Origin: a virus
DNA length: 46,554 nucleotides
Strand: one strand, 5' to 3'
IMG/VR virus record: IMGVR_UViG_3300031707_000031
Each line of letters begins with the position of its first letter. Positions within the stretch are counted from its first letter, which is position 1. The position numbers were made by a program, and so were the translations under genes. Shown piece after piece: positions 2,685 to 37,287 of the stretch. Under the pieces are notes generated by a model. The model made no database searches, was not told the origin of the DNA, and saw nothing but the letters and a program-made list of their open reading frames with translations.

Positions 2685-4125
2685 AGAGGATGAACGTATC
2701 AAGGCGATTCAGACTAATGCCAAAGACCCCGTGATGACGGCTGGATTTCTGCTGCAAGAAAATCCGAACATTATCTGCTGTCAGGAAGCCCTGTATCAGT
2801 ATAACGGAAAATGCTATGACCTCCTGACCGACAAGCAACTGGACAGAATTTTTTTGGATTTTACGATTGCTTACGGCACGACCTTGCTTTTCAAAAACAT
2901 CAATATCACTTTGCGGGCGTTTGTGGCTCATCCAAACATTCAAAAGGTTAAGAAAATGAACGATTACGCCGACCTGATTTGCCTGAACAACGGGATTCTG
3001 AACATCCACACCAAGAAATTCATCCCGCACTCGCCGAAATGCTTTTTTGATTCAACCGTTAACGTCGATTACGACGTTCTCGCCGACAAGTGTCCCGTAT
3101 TTATCGAGTATCTGAACAATACTTTCAACGGCGACAAGGAAACAATCGTTAATATTATCCGCCTGGGCGGTTATTTGATTGACACATCCTGTGCGGCGGA
3201 GAAAATGTTTATCTTTGACGGCGAGGGAGCGAATGGCAAGAGTGTTTTAATAAACACCTTTGCTTTATTCTTTTCGGAAGACCAAATATCGCCGCTATCC
3301 TTGGACGCTCTCTCGTCGGATAGTTTTAGCAAGGAGCTTTTGATTAAGAGCAGAATCAACCTGGCAGCCGAACAGAAAAAATCTTATCTGGAATCGGAAG
3401 AGATAAAAAAGATTATCACTGGCGACCGCATGGAAGTCAACCGCAAATATCAGGTTTCGCTGTCGTTTACGCCGAAAACTAAAATCATCGTCGCTTGCAA
3501 CGGCTTGCCCAAATTCAACGACACAACCCATGCCATCTATCGCCGTATGACGCTGATAAAATTCCCGAATCAGTATCTGACAGAGCAGGAATACAAGGTT
3601 GCGATGGAACGCAAACGGAAGAATGTATTTCTTAAAGATAAAAGTTTATTTGAAAAAATCAAGGCGGAGAAATCGGCGATTTTGAATTTATTTATTGCGG
3701 GGCTGGTTGACTTGAGGAAAAGTAATTATGAGTTCACGGGCAGCACGTTGTCGGAAACGTTTATGAATGAATTTAAACGGGACTCCGATTCCGTACGAGA
3801 ATTCTTGGAAGACAACTATGGAGTGTTTGAATCAACTGGCTTGGACGGAACACCGCTTCGTCAAATTTTTGGACATTATCGGGAATGGTATCACGACAAC
3901 GTTCAGGATTCTGGCGTCATAAAATTCCGCATTAACGAGATGGGGCGGCGTATTAAGCAAATTCTTGGCGTCGAACCAATTGGACAAAAGTATGTTTGGA
4001 ATTCAAATACGCAACGGAACGAGAGAGAAACGCTTTACCCGATTCGGGAAATTCAACCGCCGTTACTGGCACAAGAAGTGCCAGCAAAAGACGCCGAGCA
4101 ACTTGGAATTAATTTTGATAAATAA
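2659..4125 (+). CDS. primase-helicase, phage/plasmid P4 / poxvirus D5 family (SF3 NTPase)
   Basis: 488 aa with Walker A FDGEGANGKS and the downstream layout typical of the P4/D5 C-terminal NTPase domain. Recognised from motifs only. Confidence 0.8.
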   Translation: MSEVTKQLEEDERIKAIQTNAKDPVMTAGFLLQENPNIICCQEALYQYNGKCYDLLTDKQLDRIFLDFTIAYGTTLLFKNINITLRAFVAHPNIQKVKKMNDYADLICLNNGILNIHTKKFIPHSPKCFFDSTVNVDYDVLADKCPVFIEYLNNTFNGDKETIVNIIRLGGYLIDTSCAAEKMFIFDGEGANGKSVLINTFALFFSEDQISPLSLDALSSDSFSKELLIKSRINLAAEQKKSYLESEEIKKIITGDRMEVNRKYQVSLSFTPKTKIIVACNGLPKFNDTTHAIYRRMTLIKFPNQYLTEQEYKVAMERKRKNVFLKDKSLFEKIKAEKSAILNLFIAGLVDLRKSNYEFTGSTLSETFMNEFKRDSDSVREFLEDNYGVFESTGLDGTPLRQIFGHYREWYHDNVQDSGVIKFRINEMGRRIKQILGVEPIGQKYVWNSNTQRNERETLYPIREIQPPLLAQEVPAKDAEQLGINFDK

Positions 4126-8214: not shown

Positions 8215-8260
8215 TTTCCTTTAACCTTGGAAGTAAATTATTAACTAATAAAAATGTTTT

Positions 8261-8416
8261 ATGAAACCAAACAAATATGGATGTAAGGTCTCAGATGATG
8301 TATGCGTAATGCACGATGAACCATTGGTTTGCAAGCACGGATGCACTCACTCTAAATGCAACTGCAAGGAATATGTTGAAAATATGGTTAGCTTAAATAA
8401 TGAAAAGGACAAATAG
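8261..8416 (+). CDS. small Cys-rich protein (51 aa)
   Basis: Hand translation MKPNKYGCKVSDDVCVMHDEPLVCKHGCTHSKCNCKEY...; preceded by the repeated cassette ACTAATAAAAATGTTTT-ATGAAA. Confidence 0.4.
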   Translation: MKPNKYGCKVSDDVCVMHDEPLVCKHGCTHSKCNCKEYVENMVSLNNEKDK

Positions 8417-33943: not shown

Positions 33944-34052
33944 CGACCAGCCAGTATCACCTCAAGCGAGGGATTTACCCTATCGTTAAATTATTAAGAT
34001 TTTTTAAAATTATTTTACCTAATTAGTAATCTTAATTATTTAAAGTTTTGGC

Positions 34053-34079
34053 TAGAGGGGAGAGATTACCTCCCCTCTA
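34053..34079 (-). other. perfect 10-bp hairpin TAGAGGGGAG-7 nt-CTCCCCTCTA downstream of the capsid gene
   Basis: Read directly; 46 nt past the capsid stop. It has no U-tract, so it may be a transcript-stabilising or termination element. Confidence 0.85.
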
Positions 34080-34105
34080 CTTGCGTCTGCCGAACCAAAT
34101 TTATA

Positions 34106-34117
34106 TCTAATATTAGC
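34106..34117. promoter_or_regulatory. operator-like site TCTAATATTAGC (isolated copy outside the control region)
   Basis: TATCTAATATTAGC here is identical to the copy at 44084-44097. Confidence 0.45.
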
Positions 34118-34124
34118 CTAAAAA

Positions 34125-34900
34125 TCAGGCACTTCCGTCACCCTTCGAAAGTTTCAGCCAAACGCCAGATACTGTGCAGATTCCGTAACCACATCTGACC
34201 CCAAATTGCCAATCGTCGGTGCTAAATTCATCTCCGTTATTTCCTTCAGACGGACTTTTCAATCTCGGCTCTTCAGCGACGCCAAGATAAAGAGAAGAAT
34301 TAGCCGAAGACGCTAAACCCCAATAATATCTCTTTGTCGAATCTACCGCTCCTGCCGCAGTTGTGGCGACACGAGGAAGAATGACGTGGCGATATTTGGA
34401 TTTATAAACGTTGACAACATTTGAATTCATACCAGTAAGGTCGGCAGTGGATTGCAGATACTCTTTGGCAGTGTTGACGGTGTTCGGGTCGTCAGTTGTC
34501 CAGAGAATATCGAATTCCATTACCATCTTTTCACCAAATTGGTTCAAAGTCTCTTCAGCAACGAGTCTCTCCATTCCCTCTAACGCACCCTTAGATAACT
34601 TCGGGTTATTAGCAAGAATGTTGCGATAAGTTGCGGTTGTTCCTCTCAAATAGTGACCAGTGGAGGCCAAGCAAAGAGTATCGCCAGTTGCAATATCAAT
34701 TGTGTTGGAATCCATATCGGTATAAGTAGTTGCTGTTGCGAAGGTTAAGCGATGAGACAAATCTAAATCCATTCTGCGTGCAGCTTGAGCGGCATTGCCA
34801 GTCAAGCGAGCAACAACTTCAGGATATTTATTCTGTGTTCTCATTTCATAGGTGATTCCGATGTCCATAGCAACACGTTTTATTGTCATGGTCTTGCTAT
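34125..34900 (-). CDS. major capsid protein, exon 3 (C-terminal 258 codons plus 2 nt)
   Basis: The frame stays open upstream of M34889 (..SKTMTIKRVAMDIGITYEM...). Position after scaffold and decoration genes. It possibly resembles the Mu gpT head-subunit family, from memory and unverified. Confidence 0.7.
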
Positions 34901-34927
34901 CAAATTTGTTACTATTTCTTACTGAAT

Positions 34928-34956
34928 TTGACTATTTTATGTCATAGTGTTAGAAT
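34928..34956 (+). promoter_or_regulatory. early-type promoter TTGACT-17 nt-TAGAAT driving the antisense HNH gene
   Basis: TTGACT at 34928-34933 and TAGAAT at 34951-34956. The ATG at 34964 lies 8 nt after the -10, so the mRNA is leaderless or nearly so. Confidence 0.55.
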
Positions 34957-34963
34957 TAACACT

Positions 34964-35425
34964 ATGAAATTATATAAAAATCGTGATTGGCTCTATACGA
35001 TGTATGTTGATAAAGATTTAAGTCAGCGAGAAATTGCTAAATTATGTGACATAAATCAATCAATAATACATCGTGCTTTGGTTAGGTTCAGCATCCCAAG
35101 AAGGAAGTTCTGCGGTCGTTCAGGAATCCATTGTCATCTTTATAAAGGGGGAAAGTCCAGAACTACCCAAGGATATATACACATCCTTTTAAAGGGTCAC
35201 CCTCGGACTAATTGCAAAAACTATGTTCCTGAGCAAGTCCTTGTCGTAGAAAAGCATCTTGGTCGTTATCTTTCTAAAGAAAATGCAATCCACCATATCA
35301 ACGAAATTAAGGACGACAATCGGATAGAAAATCTTTATTTATTTCCGTCCGAGTCAGAACATCAGCGTTATCATCAGAAATTTAGAAAGGGAACGATGCC
35401 GTTAATCACTAAGTCAAATTTGTAA
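34964..35425 (+). CDS. HNH homing endonuclease (HNH_3-like, 153 aa) with an N-terminal HTH
   Basis: AIHHINEIKDDNRIENLYLFPSESEHQRYH is the HNH motif, and LSQREIAKLCDINQSIIHRAL is an HTH. The ORF-track start at 34883 overlaps capsid exon 3 and is rejected. Confidence 0.8.
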   Translation: MKLYKNRDWLYTMYVDKDLSQREIAKLCDINQSIIHRALVRFSIPRRKFCGRSGIHCHLYKGGKSRTTQGYIHILLKGHPRTNCKNYVPEQVLVVEKHLGRYLSKENAIHHINEIKDDNRIENLYLFPSESEHQRYHQKFRKGTMPLITKSNL

Positions 35426-35431
35426 GGAACG

Positions 35432-35453
35432 ATGAGACTACTTCGAGTCTCAT
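35432..35453 (+). terminator. hairpin ATGAGACT-6 nt-AGTCTCAT just after the HNH stop
   Basis: 8-bp perfect stem 7 nt after TAA (35423-35425), followed by tcaccagTTTCTTCTT. It could equally be an intron stem on the minus strand. Confidence 0.4.
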
Positions 35454-35627
35454 TCACCAGTTTCTTCTTGTTATGGCTGGTGTTCAGACTATTACATCCG
35501 CCGACTTTCGGCGGTCTTTTCGGTTAGTCGTTGTTGCTGCACGCTTACGCTGCTTGCAAGGCGTTGTCCACTGCTGGGTTTTCGCCGTAGATTAGAAAAG
35601 ATTTTATAAGGACTATAGCACTTGTCA

Positions 35628-35843
35628 ATCCTTGCTGAACTTTTGCTCTTTCGGCTTGAGAGCCTTCGCCCTTAGCCTTAGCATACTCTTCGGAATCTAT
35701 TTCGCTAAATTCACGAGTGTTGCCGCTGTTTTGAGGTATCGGATATTCCTTTACCAAGCCAGAACCACGCATAACCTGTGCGACACTGGCATAAGCTTTT
35801 AGCCAAATGACGGACGCAAGTTTTACGAAGTCATTCAGACTAA
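35628..35843 (-). CDS. major capsid protein, exon 2
   Basis: Encodes (F)SLNDFVKLASVIWLKAYASVAQVMRGSGLVKEYPIPQNSGNTREFSEIDSEEYAKAKGEGSQAERAKVQQG. The 3' end is well supported, but the 5' end depends on the intron-1 model. Confidence 0.55.
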
Positions 35844-36539
35844 CTGTATTAAGTTCGATATAATTAGTAATTACTTAATAATACTAATGGTATGTTAACT
35901 GGTATGATTTTACTATGCTTTTTCAGATTACATCGCAGACATAATGGTTGAATGTTCCCGATATTATTGTCCCCACCTTTACTCAGAGGAATAATATGGT
36001 CTTCGGTTAGATAAGGAGTTCTTTGTCCAATAAATGGTTCGGACTTCCCACACATCAAACATCGATAATTATTAATGCGTTTCAATTCGTTCCACTGCGT
36101 GACGGTATGAGAACTTGTCAATGATACTGCCCTAAGCCGATGATTACGCTGCTTCTTCTGCCAAGAAATATATCCGTTCTCTAAACATCGGCCATCTTTA
36201 AAGAAATGACTCTTTTCTCCAGTATGTGCATCAATAATTGATTGGCGATGTTCTTTGGAAAGAGTATGCCCAAGAGCAAGAGAGTTGCCAGTCATCAATA
36301 TTTTTAGTTCCCTCTTTCGTTCTTCTGTGTGTATTGGTACACCGATTTTTTTTGCTCTTATCTTGTTTACGGTTGCTGCCGAATATCTTCTACAAGCCCC
36401 AGAACAAAAAGTCCTTCCATTACGTATTTCGTACGCCCACGCAACGAATTCTTTTCCACATGTTCTACATTTCAAAGTACTCTTCCCCGTTCCTCTTTTT
36501 GCATAAATCATAACTATTAATATACCATTAGTTATTATT
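35844..36539 (-). mobile_element. candidate group I intron or HEG insertion (696 nt) at the extreme 5' end of the capsid gene
   Basis: UAUGU (36544-36540) pairs with GUAUA (36525-36521), and ACUAA (36532-36528) pairs with UUAGU (35843-35839); G at 35844. This is the same 14-nt-loop architecture as the other intron, but P1 is weak and the ORF fills about 93% of the insert. Confidence 0.35.
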
Positions 36540-36568
36540 ACATAATTGTAAATTATGTTTACTGCCAT
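35864..36568 (-). CDS. HNH homing endonuclease with zinc-ribbon and NUMOD3-like motifs (215-234 aa)
   Basis: TEDHIIPLSKGGDNNIGNIQPLCLRCNLKKH is a classic HNH motif. CRTCGKEF...CSGAC and GHTLSKEHRQSIIDAHTG are the other two motifs. An alternative start is ATG 36511. Confidence 0.8.
   Translation of the reverse strand: MAVNIIYNYVIITNGILIVMIYAKRGTGKSTLKCRTCGKEFVAWAYEIRNGRTFCSGACRRYSAATVNKIRAKKIGVPIHTEERKRELKILMTGNSLALGHTLSKEHRQSIIDAHTGEKSHFFKDGRCLENGYISWQKKQRNHRLRAVSLTSSHTVTQWNELKRINNYRCLMCGKSEPFIGQRTPYLTEDHIIPLSKGGDNNIGNIQPLCLRCNLKKHSKIIPVNIPLVLLSNY
36540..36543 (-). CDS. major capsid protein, proposed exon 1 coding part (AUG plus U)
   Basis: Joining 36540 to 35843 gives AUG UUU AGU CUG AAU GAC, i.e. 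MFSLNDF, in frame. The AT-rich context (cataatttacaattATG) resembles other late starts. Confidence 0.3.
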
Positions 36569-36625
36569 GACACTGATTGTTTAGGCCATACGCTGTTCCT
36601 AGTAAACTTAAATTAATTATTATTT

Positions 36626-37072
36626 TTAAGAATTTGCTTTTAATCTGGCATCAGTACCAACGTTCAAGATGAAAAGACCCTTGGTTGTGCTAATAAATTT
36701 AACGCATTGCACAATGTGGTAAGTGGAAGCACTCTGGTCAACGCCAGTACCATCGTCAGCAGTGGTCAAGTTAAAATATAAGCCGACAGAAGTTGTTGCC
36801 AGTGTGCCAACAGCGACTGGGGCTTCCCAAATAACATTCTTTTCCACAGGTACTTCAATCGGAACTAAGCGAGCAACTGCATAATCGGAATCAGCCGTTG
36901 TGATTGCCTTTCTGATTACACCAACCATATCGTAGTTATTGGCAGTATTTGTAGCAGGAATCAAAACTCCGCTAGAATAAGCCATTAATGCACCGTTTGT
37001 TACCGCTCCAGCAGAGGCAGCAACAGGAAGATACATTATTTTTGTCTTTCCTTCTTTGCGAATAAACGCCAT
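36626..37072 (-). CDS. putative head decoration / capsid accessory protein (148 aa)
   Basis: Small beta-rich protein directly upstream of the capsid gene, starting MAFIRKEGK. An alternative start is MYLPVAAS at 37036. The call is positional inference. Confidence 0.35.
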   Translation of the reverse strand: MAFIRKEGKTKIMYLPVAASAGAVTNGALMAYSSGVLIPATNTANNYDMVGVIRKAITTADSDYAVARLVPIEVPVEKNVIWEAPVAVGTLATTSVGLYFNLTTADDGTGVDQSASTYHIVQCVKFISTTKGLFILNVGTDARLKANS

Positions 37073-37111
37073 ATAAGTAAGTTTTAAAACTAATAAATAA
37101 GCCCTATTACA

Positions 37112-37144
37112 CAAAAAAACACGATATTTGTGTAATATTCGTGT
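37112..37144 (-). terminator. rho-independent terminator upstream of the decoration and capsid genes
   Basis: Minus strand: ACACGAATATT-ACACA-AATATCGTGT (10 bp with one bulge) followed by U7. Confidence 0.55.
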
Positions 37145-37287
37145 TGTTAACGCAGTTTCTCTGCGAAGAAAATATGGCTTTTTTTAACGCTGGTATTGCT
37201 CCATCGGATAAGTTGTCGATTCCGACCAACCTGTTGCCAGATTAGCCGAATATTGAAAACCTATGTCTAAAAAAGGCACTATAATCA

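What the first reader, a model, noticed from the sequence alone, without database searches (positions are those of the whole stretch)
35844..36539. Second endonuclease-bearing insert would leave only AUG+U as the first coding exon of the capsid gene
Evidence for an upstream exon:
- The capsid frame is open upstream of M35772 back to 35874. It encodes plausible N-terminal capsid sequence (SLNDFVKLASVIWLKAYASVAQ).
- That stretch contains no ATG, GTG or TTG.
- Directly upstream lies a same-strand HNH/NUMOD3-like endonuclease ORF.

A guide with the same architecture as the downstream intron exists:
- ...UUAUGU ends at 36540, followed by a 14-nt loop and then GUAUA (36525-36521). GUAUA pairs with UAUGU, with U.G at the junction.
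- ACUAA (36532-36528) pairs with UUAGU (35843-35839), which follows a G at 35844.
- Joining 36540 to 35843 gives AUG-UUU-AGU-CUG-AAU-GAC, i.e. MFSLNDF, in frame.

Caveats:
- P1 is only 5 bp, two of them wobbles, in AT-rich sequence.
- The ORF occupies about 93% of the insert, so a ribozyme core would have to overlap coding sequence.

Alternatives are a free-standing endonuclease gene plus a non-canonical capsid start (AUU 35871 or AUC 35859). Another is the 2-codon ATGGCCTAA at 36589 acting as exon 1 (ATGGCC+T gives MAFSLNDF with the same 3' site).
Basis: partly seen in the sequence, partly recalled or inferred. Interest (0 to 1): 0.7.

Follow-up and report, generated by a model that had tools for sequence, protein, structure and literature searches.

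The report
Endonuclease cassette replaces capsid start codon
The insert is not an intron but a mobile HNH endonuclease gene cassette that landed exactly on the start codon of a phage's only major capsid gene, which now appears to begin at the weak codon AUC, a pattern that recurs in related phages.

Summary
The proposed splice (36540 joined to 35843, giving MFSLNDF) is wrong.

- **N-terminus.** Insert-free homologues (335 aa) all begin MELN(T/S)xSLxDF. The window encodes I-ELNTVSLNDF in frame, with ATC (35859-35857) exactly where relatives have ATG.
- **Insert boundaries.** The nearly identical insert-free phage L003 reads 5'UTR-ATG-GAACTTAAT. The window reads 5'UTR-ATG(36543-41)-TAA...[684 nt, 36540-35857]...ATC-GAACTTAAT.
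- **No ribozyme.** Natural derivatives lacking most of the HNH ORF keep only 146 nt, which fold into one hairpin. Rfam finds no group I core. The boundaries implied by homologues are G| and C|, not U| and G|.
- **Free-standing relatives.** The closest homologues of this HNH sit directly upstream of capsid genes that start with TTG at the same position.
- **Start triplets.** In seven alleles where the cassette abuts the start, the triplet is ATC (5) or TTG (2). Cassette-free alleles have ATG.

Best reading: a free-standing homing-endonuclease cassette, bracketed by a long-range inverted repeat, with the capsid initiating at AUC. The start-codon change probably protects against the endonuclease; this was not tested. 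It is puzzling because AUC is a poor initiator in E. coli.

The parts
36566..36590 (-). Conserved 5'-UTR hairpin of the capsid gene. Stem 36590-36585 pairs with 36571-36566; the invariant loop (C/G)TAAAYAATCA(G/C)T is 36584-36572. Both 'ATGG' motifs (36589, 36568) are simply stem strands.
   Evidence: Nine relatives were aligned (A3). All 6 pairs carry compensatory changes. 92.6% of cells are paired, against 54.5% in shuffles and 30-46% in slid controls. No Rfam match.
36538..36543 (-). Orphaned ancestral capsid start codon ATG (36543-36541), followed at once by TAA (then TAA TAA).
   Evidence: The 5'-UTR from the hairpin to this ATG is homologous and of like length to the UTRs of insert-free L003, L001, L006 and L008, which continue ATG-GAA. 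L050 has the same ATG|TAA arrangement.
35857..36540 (-). The 684-nt insert: a free-standing HNH homing-endonuclease cassette lying exactly between the ancestral ATG and codon 2 (GAA 35856).
   Evidence: Absent from the nearly identical phage L003. Reduced to 146 nt in L002/L007.
36505..36556 (-). 5' arm of the long-range inverted repeat. It covers the orphan ATG and the HNH start region.
   Evidence: the repeat finder reports I1 (28 nt, 86% complementary) and I2 (24 nt, 79%). The pairing appears in both the MFE and centroid folds of the full insert and of the deletion variant.
35860..35910 (-). 3' arm of the long-range inverted repeat. It ends at the base just before ATC 35859.
   Evidence: Analogous brackets of unrelated sequence occur in L040, L050, L088, L099, L107, L136 and L138.
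35864..36511 (-). HNH endonuclease ORF (215 aa plus stop) from ATG 36511. The mechanical ORF from 36568 adds 19 aa. Its frame differs from the capsid frame.
   Evidence: Pfam HNH PF01844 E=5.5e-14, HNH_5 E=4e-11, NUMOD3 below cut-off. PHROG HNH families match. Homologues align from about residue 8-15.
35917..36453 (-). Segment of the HNH ORF deleted in the natural variants L002 and L007. The rest of the insert is 100% identical.
35857..35859 (-). ATC at the exact position of the family's ATG: the proposed capsid initiation codon.
   Evidence: tblastn of P0001 aligns residues 1-82 to 35859-35614. ATC holds this position in L040, L050, L088, L099 and insert-free L104. TTG holds it in L136 and L138.
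35628..35859 (-). Capsid 5' exon: codons 1-77 plus the first base (U35628) of Tyr78.
   Evidence: Alignment to 335-aa homologues.
34901..35627 (-). Downstream group I-like intron (U|...G| boundaries; P1 AAGGAU/GUCCUU). It is not the subject of this finding.
   Evidence: Joining 35628 to 34900 restores QQG-Y-SKTMTIKRV as in homologues. Not detected by Rfam.
34964..35425 (+). Antisense HNH_3 endonuclease ORF inside the downstream intron.
   Evidence: PF13392 E=1.5e-8; phrog_7545 E=1e-25.
34125..34900 (-). Capsid 3' exon (to the stop codon). The two exons together give 335 aa.
   Evidence: Phage_capsid_4 PF25209 matches weakly (22.2 bits, below its 27-bit cut-off).

Best explanation
The insert 36540-35857 is a free-standing, mobile HNH homing-endonuclease cassette. 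It is not an intron and nothing is spliced.

- **Position.** It sits exactly between the ancestral capsid start codon and codon 2. The old ATG (36543) remains as an orphan 'start-stop' (AUG UAA).
- **Import.** The cassette arrived on a divergent gene-conversion tract, in an otherwise identical genome backbone.
- **New start.** The last three bases of the cassette, ATC (35859-35857), occupy the position of the lost ATG. Together with the AT-rich stretch before them, typical of this phage's SD-less initiation regions, they act as the capsid initiation site. After removal of the separate downstream group I-like intron, the product is (f)Met-ELNTVSLNDF..., 335 aa.
- **Inferred, not shown.** The endonuclease recognises the conserved ATG-GAA-YTN-AAY region. 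Splitting that site and changing the start triplet by one base (ATG to ATC here, TTG in relatives) protects the carrier genome while keeping a usable start codon.
- **Inferred, not shown.** The long-range inverted repeat encloses the endonuclease ORF and its start region. It most likely limits endonuclease translation on the abundant late capsid transcript. It also keeps the 5'-UTR close to the new start.
For: 1. Homologues begin MELNxxSLxDF with E2, L3 and N4 invariant. The window encodes I-ELNTVSLNDF in frame.
2. Insert-free L003 is 100% identical to the window for hundreds of nt on both sides. Identity falls to 62-88% over roughly 36660-34890, the tract that spans both endonuclease-bearing inserts. 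This is the signature of co-conversion.
3. Codons 2-29 differ from L003 at 17 nt, all synonymous (my count from the sequences). The 3 exon differences from L002 are also synonymous.
4. The deletion variants L002 and L007, from two independent datasets, retain 146 nt and the ATC.
5. L088 retains a 115-nt remnant; its only ATG lies inside the hairpin loop, with none between the upstream gene's stop and the hairpin. Insert-free L104 has ATC with no ATG anywhere in its UTR.
6. The nearest HNH homologues (45-50% identical) are free-standing, directly upstream of capsid genes that start with TTG at the same position: L138/L139 and L136/L137.
7. Start triplets: ATC x5 and TTG x2 where the cassette's 3' arm ends within 20 nt of the start. 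ATG is kept where the cassette lies farther away (L107, L052). In the roughly 60 cassette-free loci of the unbiased viral scan, the start is ATG, with one GTG. L104 and L105 come from a separate look-up.
8. Two unrelated HNH families (window type and L050 type) show the same architecture, including the bracketing inverted repeats.
9. The window holds only one capsid gene.
10. This phage's genes lack Shine-Dalgarno motifs and have AT-rich leaders like the one before the ATC.
Against: - AUC initiates at only about 1-2% (0.02-3%) of AUG in E. coli (bioRxiv 10.1101/063800). That seems too low for a major capsid protein, and the host is unknown.
- There is no protein or RNA evidence, because the phage is uncultured and has no relatives among isolated phages.
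- The 3' arm of the inverted repeat pairs right up to the base before the AUC. That pairing could hinder rather than help initiation.
- In insert-free L105 the triplet is ATA, the first 10 codons look relaxed and an ATG occurs at codon 11. This suggests ATH starts can fail.
- L107 carries an L050-type endonuclease yet keeps ATG, so the immunity argument is not universal.
- Endonuclease specificity was not tested.
Confidence: 0.68

Rival explanations
1. A group I intron with P1 UAUGU/GUAUA is spliced from U36540 to G35844, leaving AUG+U as exon 1 and giving MFSLNDF.
For: The short pairings exist as described and the join is in frame. Group I introns do occur in capsid genes of this family: RF00028 scores 50.2 bits in L070, and the window has a downstream intron.
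Against: - The join removes the invariant ELN(T)V encoded in frame at 35856-35842.
- The P1 5-mer is expected by chance in 42% of shuffles.
- Rfam gives no hit at E<=10.
- GUAUA and ACUAA belong to the long-range hairpin arm.
- Deletion variants keep only 146 nt.
- The boundaries implied by homologues end in G| and C|, not U| and G|.
- L088 and L104 have the ATC with no upstream ATG outside the hairpin loop.
Confidence: 0.02
2. The insert is removed or skipped at the RNA or ribosome level by a non-canonical route. One option is precise excision of 36540-35857 by an unknown activity. Another is that ribosomes loaded at the orphan AUG-UAA, or terminating just upstream, are handed across the base of the long hairpin to the AUC/GAA. 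That would be a shunt or long-range re-initiation, analogous in spirit to T4 gene 60 bypassing.
For: - AUG is followed immediately by a stop, at the foot of a roughly 50-bp long-range duplex whose other foot abuts the AUC. This holds in the window and in L050.
- In L088, L099 and L040 a stop codon of an upstream ORF lies 1-13 nt before the hairpin foot (my reading).
- The hairpin arms survive three independent deletions of the endonuclease ORF.
- T4 mobA plus the gene 60 gap is a precedent for an HNH cassette made harmless by a translational trick (bioRxiv 10.1101/2022.08.31.505936).
Against: - Take-off and landing codons do not match (AUG versus AUC).
- The gap is 146-684 nt, against about 50 nt in known bypassing, and no nascent peptide is available.
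- L104 has ATC with neither cassette nor hairpin.
- TTG alleles need no such mechanism.
- The brackets also occur in cassettes far from the start (L107, L052), and their 5' arms cover the endonuclease start. This points to endonuclease regulation.
- Stop codons are frequent in AT-rich sequence.
Confidence: 0.08
3. AUC is not used. The capsid is made from the first canonical codon, M35772, as a protein lacking its 29 N-terminal residues.
For: - M35772 is the first ATG in frame.
- AUC is weak in E. coli.
- L105 appears to have moved its start to a new ATG at codon 11.
Against: - Codons 2-29 show only synonymous differences from L003 (17/17) and from L002 (2/2).
- All six ATC alleles keep the family-invariant N-terminal residues, although their DNA diverges from codon 3 onward.
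- M30 is a conserved residue in ATG alleles too, so it is not a specially evolved start.
- Sister cassette alleles use TTG at position 1.
Confidence: 0.12
4. The capsid gene is simply broken. The contig would then represent a defective or helper-dependent genome.
For: There is no canonical start codon, and no experimental data exist.
Against: - The same arrangement occurs in several independent datasets and lineages with otherwise intact ORFs.
- The window is a full-length contig of about 46.5 kb, like its relatives.
- It has only one capsid gene.
- Variation within it is synonymous only.
Confidence: 0.05

Closest known systems
Free-standing homing endonuclease genes of phages ('intronless homing', e.g. 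T4 seg/mob genes)
   Same: - An intact HNH nuclease ORF sits between two conserved genes.
- Near-identical genomes differ by its presence or absence at a precise site.
- A divergent co-conversion tract surrounds it.
- Decayed copies exist in relatives. Background: PMC2988022 and PMC10448857 turned up; I did not read them, so this background is from my own knowledge.
   Different: - The cassette is not simply intergenic. It lies between the start codon and codon 2 of an essential, highly expressed gene and supplies a replacement near-cognate start codon (ATC; TTG in relatives).
- It is bracketed by a long-range inverted repeat.
T4 mobA / gene 60 bypass cassette (HNH endonuclease plus a 50-nt untranslated gap)
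   Same: An HNH endonuclease travels with a sequence change in a conserved coding region. That change protects the carrier from the enzyme and is made tolerable at the level of translation (bioRxiv 10.1101/2022.08.31.505936).
   Different: - No matched take-off and landing codons, no nascent-peptide signal, and a gap of 146-684 nt.
- The simplest reading here is a changed start codon, not ribosome hopping.
Group I introns with homing endonuclease ORFs in phage capsid genes (e.g. mycobacteriophage LittleE; the window's own downstream intron)
   Same: An endonuclease-bearing insertion in a capsid gene that is absent from close relatives (PMC3706429). The downstream insert of this window fits this class.
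   Different: The upstream insert lacks the U|/G| boundaries, a ribozyme core and any Rfam match. It also tolerates reduction to a 146-nt hairpin.
Genes with near-cognate AUH start codons (e.g. E. coli infC AUU; from my own knowledge)
   Same: An in-frame AUH occupies the position where orthologues have AUG, with no canonical start upstream.
   Different: The known cases are low-abundance regulatory genes. Here it is a major capsid protein, and the change is linked to a mobile element.

Membership tests
Group I intron | Excision restores the conserved, uninterrupted coding sequence. | tested here: not met
Group I intron | The 5' exon ends in U, paired with G in P1. The intron ends in G. | tested here: not met
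At the boundaries implied by homologues, the exon ends in G36541 and the insert ends in C35857.
Group I intron | A conserved catalytic core (P3-P9) recognisable by a covariance model. | tested here: not met
   No RF00028 match at E<=10 on 34000-37200. The same model finds an intron in relative L070. Caveat: it also misses the window's downstream intron, so its sensitivity is incomplete.
Group I intron | The ribozyme persists when the ORF is lost. | tested here: not met
   L002 and L007 keep 146 nt, folding as one long hairpin. The L088 remnant is 115 nt.
Free-standing homing endonuclease cassette | An intact nuclease domain in its own reading frame. | tested here: met
   PF01844 scores 52.5 bits against a cut-off of 21.4. 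Its frame differs from the capsid frame (coordinates).
Free-standing homing endonuclease cassette | Presence/absence polymorphism at a precise site, with a flanking co-conversion tract. | tested here: met
   L003 versus the window: 100% identity outside a tract of 62-88% identity that spans the inserts.
Free-standing homing endonuclease cassette | Homologous endonucleases occupy the same genomic position without interrupting the host gene. | tested here: met
   In L138/L139 and L136/L137 the HNH is followed by a capsid gene starting with TTG. In L107 the capsid gene starts with ATG.
Free-standing homing endonuclease cassette | The enzyme cleaves the cassette-free allele near the insertion site and spares its own allele. 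| not testable with these tools
   This needs an in vitro cleavage assay on ATG-GAA versus ATC/TTG-GAA targets.
Programmed translational bypassing (T4 gene 60 type) | Matched take-off and landing codons, a stop after the take-off codon, a short gap and a nascent-peptide signal. | tested here: not met
   AUG versus AUC; a gap of 146-684 nt; no peptide is possible. The stop after AUG is present in the window and L050 only.
Near-cognate (AUH) start-codon gene | AUH at the orthologous start position, no canonical start upstream in frame, recurrent in relatives. | tested here: met
Near-cognate (AUH) start-codon gene | The protein N-terminus maps to that codon. | not testable with these tools
   No proteomic data; the phage is uncultured.

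The most novel reading that the evidence does not exclude
The cassette behaves as an 'intron for the ribosome'. Ribosomes that load at the orphan AUG-UAA start-stop, or that terminate just upstream, would be passed across the foot of the roughly 50-bp long-range hairpin to the near-cognate AUC. This would be a bacterial counterpart of pararetrovirus ribosome shunting or long-range re-initiation, and it would make a 146-684-nt insertion at the start of a major capsid gene phenotypically silent without splicing.
Probability: 0.07. Interest if true: 0.9.

Novelty: new variant of a known kind. Interest (0 to 1): 0.55.

Why it matters
Homing endonuclease genes are thought to survive inside essential genes only by hiding in self-splicing introns or inteins, or else by sitting between genes. 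This looks like a third route. The cassette lands on the start codon itself and brings a replacement, one-base-variant start codon (ATC or TTG).

If confirmed, three things follow:
- The start codon of a conserved gene can be part of an endonuclease target and the site of an arms race.
- A major capsid protein can be expressed from AUC in a host that lacks Shine-Dalgarno initiation. That would make non-AUG initiation strength in such hosts directly testable.
- Gene callers truncate such genes. Here the capsid gene was called as 75-aa and 254-aa fragments.

Tried and rejected
- **Rfam.** Searched at gathering threshold on the whole window and at E<=10 on 34000-37200. No intron or other family.
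- **Isolated phages.** tblastn of both capsid exons against isolated phages found no relatives.
- **tRNAs.** ARAGORN found none, so there is no phage-encoded initiator variant.
- **HNH-capsid fusion by frameshift.** Rejected. It would need a +1 shift at UAC-UAA with no re-pairing possible, and the HNH ORF is truncated in L002/L007.
- **Intein.** Rejected, because the reading frames differ.
- **ATGGCCTAA (36589) or ATGG (36568) as exon 1 with omega-G 35856.** Rejected. Both lie in the covarying UTR stem, and the following motif CCTAAACAATCAGTG is present in insert-free UTRs.
- **Canonical U|...G| junction 36540/35873 (MLITNYIELN...).** Considered but unsupported, because nothing like it is conserved in L050, L088 or L099.
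- **Pattern scans.** The scan for ATH-GAAYTNAAY found only ATC among true capsid hits. The scan for L104-type UTRs in viral contigs gave only chance hits. The scan for window-type alleles with any base at the third start position found only L007.
- **Host.** The scan of genome contigs gave inconsistent MAG taxonomies, so no host could be called.
- **Literature.** Searches for AUC start codons in Bacteroidota or phages found nothing relevant.

Full report
**1. What is in the sequence**

On the minus strand the order is as follows:
- a 148-162-aa gene (37072/37114-36626);
- an intergenic leader;
- an HNH ORF (mechanically 36568-35864);
- 5 nt later, an open frame (35874-35545) whose first canonical start is M35772;
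- a further insert carrying an antisense HNH_3 ORF;
- the 254-aa C-terminal part of a capsid protein (34889-34125).

Pfam gives HNH (PF01844, E=5.5e-14) and a sub-threshold NUMOD3 for the upstream ORF. The C-terminal part matches Phage_capsid_4 weakly (22.2 bits, below the 27-bit cut-off), starting at profile position 74.

**2. The true N-terminus**

A search with the joined exons found about 1,700 homologues. The best uninterrupted ones are 335 aa.
- They begin MELN(T/S)xSLxDF, with E2, L3, N4, D10, F11 and A15 invariant.
- The window reads TAA(HNH stop)-TTAT-ATC-GAA-CTT-AAT-ACA-GTT-AGT-CTG-AAT-GAC, which is I-ELNTVSLND.
- tblastn places residue 1 of P0001 on 35859.

The conserved N-terminus is therefore complete except that ATG is ATC.

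The downstream interruption behaves as a canonical group I-type insertion:
- The exon ends at U35628 and the intron ends at G34901.
- P1 is AAGGAU/GUCCUU.
- The join restores QQG-Y-SKTMTIKRV.

**3. Empty site and boundaries**

L003 (IMG/VR 3300031772_000109) has a contiguous capsid gene 99% identical in protein.
- Its leader is CCTAAACAATCAGTG + 26 nt + ATG-GAACTTAATACAGTTAGT.
- The window has the same motif + 27 nt + ATG (36543-41) + TAATAATAAC...TTATATC + GAACTTAATACAGTTAGT.
- The leaders of insert-free L001, L006 and L008 are homologous up to their ATG-GAA.

So ATG 36543 is the ancestral start, and the insert is 36540-35857 (684 nt).

With both inserts removed in silico, the window is 100% identical to L003 for hundreds of nt on either side. 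Identity drops to 62-88% from about 36660 to about 34890. That is an imported tract covering both endonuclease elements, the classic footprint of homing with co-conversion. Within it, codons 2-29 differ from L003 at 17 positions, all synonymous.

**4. Not an intron**

- Rfam finds nothing, although RF00028 detects a group I intron in the capsid gene of relative L070. It also misses the window's downstream intron, so this negative carries limited weight.
- L002 and L007 come from different datasets and carry the same insert with 537 nt of the HNH ORF deleted (window 36453-35917). The remaining 146 nt are 100% identical to the window, and the ATC is retained. That remnant folds as a single long hairpin.
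- The boundaries that would restore AUG-GAA are G| and C|.
- Both alternative 'ATGG' exon-1 candidates are strands of a 5'-UTR hairpin. Its stem covaries in nine relatives: 6/6 pairs are compensatory, with 92.6% of cells paired against 54.5% in shuffles. Note that the label of the first row of A3 is off by two; its true coordinates are 36597-36562.

**5. The ATC recurs**

*Cassette-bearing alleles with ATC.* Among 69 viral loci, L040 and L050 also read ATC-GAA. Pattern scans added L088 and L099.
- L050 and L099 carry a different HNH family. The two are 63% identical to each other and unrelated to the window's HNH.
- L088 and L040 hold decayed remnants.
- L050 has the same layout as the window: UTR hairpin, about 29 nt, then ATG|TAA.
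- L088 has a 115-nt intergenic region; its only ATG lies inside the hairpin loop, with none between the upstream gene's stop and the hairpin.

*Insert-free alleles with a non-ATG triplet.*
- L104 has ATC and no ATG in its UTR.
- L105 has ATA, a relaxed-looking first ten codons and an ATG at codon 11.

*Nearest homologues of the window's HNH.* P0122 (50% identical) and P0124 (45%) are free-standing genes directly upstream of capsid genes that start with TTG-GAA-TTA-AAT: L138/L139 and L136/L137.

*Overall tally.*
- Where the cassette's 3' arm ends within 20 nt of the start, the triplet is ATC (5 alleles) or TTG (2).
- Cassettes farther upstream (L107, L052) keep ATG.
- The roughly 60 cassette-free loci of the unbiased viral scan have ATG, with one GTG.

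Every triplet is ATG or a one-base variant known to initiate. This is expected for a mutated start codon and not for an intron's 3' end.

**6. The bracket**

Every cassette is enclosed by a long-range inverted repeat of lineage-specific sequence.

| Locus | 5' arm | 3' arm |
|---|---|---|
| window | 36556-36505 | 35910-35860 |
| L050 | 2427-2452 | 2954-2979 |
| L040 | 2891-2917 | 2954-2980 |
| L088 | 8235-8274 | 8302-8341 |
| L138 | 2464-2501 | 3065-3102 |
| L136 | 2447-2482 | 3072-3107 |
| L107 | 1473-1497 | 1923-1947 |

L099 carries one as well (41 nt, 83% complementary).
- The pairing is predicted in the MFE and centroid folds of the full 771-nt region.
- The 5' arm usually covers or abuts the endonuclease start codon, and the 3' arm covers the end of the ORF.

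I infer that its main role is to restrain endonuclease translation on the late capsid transcript. In the window it also brings the 5'-UTR next to the AUC.

**7. Mechanism and open problem**

The best-supported reading is a free-standing homing-endonuclease cassette whose 3' end supplies the capsid's initiation region and an AUC start.
- The one-base change of the start triplet plausibly destroys the enzyme's target while keeping some start function. This step is an inference.
- The phage's genes lack Shine-Dalgarno motifs and have AT-rich leaders, so rules from E. coli may not apply.
- AUC gives only about 1-2% of AUG in E. coli. That is the main difficulty, and it is what makes the locus worth an experiment.

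Rival readings are an N-terminally truncated capsid from M35772, a shunt or re-initiation across the hairpin, and a defective gene. They are listed with their tests.

**8. Comparison with known systems**

The locus works like intronless homing of free-standing endonuclease genes. Conceptually it also resembles the T4 mobA/gene 60 cassette, in which an HNH gene travels with a protective change made tolerable by translation. It fails every tested criterion for group I intron membership. I rate it a new variant of a known kind.

Noticed in passing
window 36590-36566 (minus strand); also L001, L003, L006, L008, L050, L067, L104, L105: A conserved hairpin lies 19-29 nt (35 nt in L067) upstream of the capsid start codon, with an invariant loop (C/G)TAAAYAATCA(G/C)T. 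All six stem pairs covary. It has no Rfam match and its function is unknown; it may be a translational or regulatory element of the capsid mRNA.
   Followed up: partly
window 35627-34901 (minus strand), with an antisense ORF at 34964-35425 (+): A second insert in the capsid gene behaves as a group I-type intron: exon ending in U, intron ending in G, and a 6-bp P1 with a U.G wobble. It carries an HNH_3 endonuclease gene on the opposite strand, downstream of the apparent core. Rfam's RF00028 does not detect it. L099 is interrupted at the same QQG site; in L061/L062/L112 the capsid match starts only at residue 79, which suggests the same.
   Followed up: partly
window ~36660-34890 compared with L003: A divergent tract of about 350 nt of exon and leader (62-88% identity) sits in an otherwise 100% identical backbone and spans both endonuclease elements. 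This implies both were imported together by gene conversion.
   Followed up: yes
L070 3454-3646: A relative's capsid gene carries a different group I intron at another position, detected by RF00028 (50.2 bits, E=3e-10). The capsid gene of this phage family is a hotspot for mobile elements.
   Followed up: no
L052 2340-3000: A decayed L050-type HNH cassette with its own bracketing repeat is inserted inside a different conserved 5'-UTR element (CAGTGG..CCCGTA...CGGGTTGG), which also occurs in L040, L048, L049, L136 and L138. A NUMOD3-like small ORF overlaps the capsid ATG.
   Followed up: no
L105 1563-1600: This insert-free allele has ATA at the start position. Eight of its first 11 residues differ from its nearest relative, and ATG replaces the otherwise invariant F11 codon. 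The start codon may have relocated after loss of the ATG.
   Followed up: partly
whole window: There are no Shine-Dalgarno motifs before the genes; the leaders are AT-rich (e.g. ttaattaataattaaaaatATG). No tRNA genes were found. MAG bins that hold relatives have inconsistent taxonomy, so the host is unresolved.
   Followed up: partly
window 36543-36532: The orphan start codon is followed by three consecutive in-frame stop codons (ATG TAA TAA TAA).
   Followed up: no
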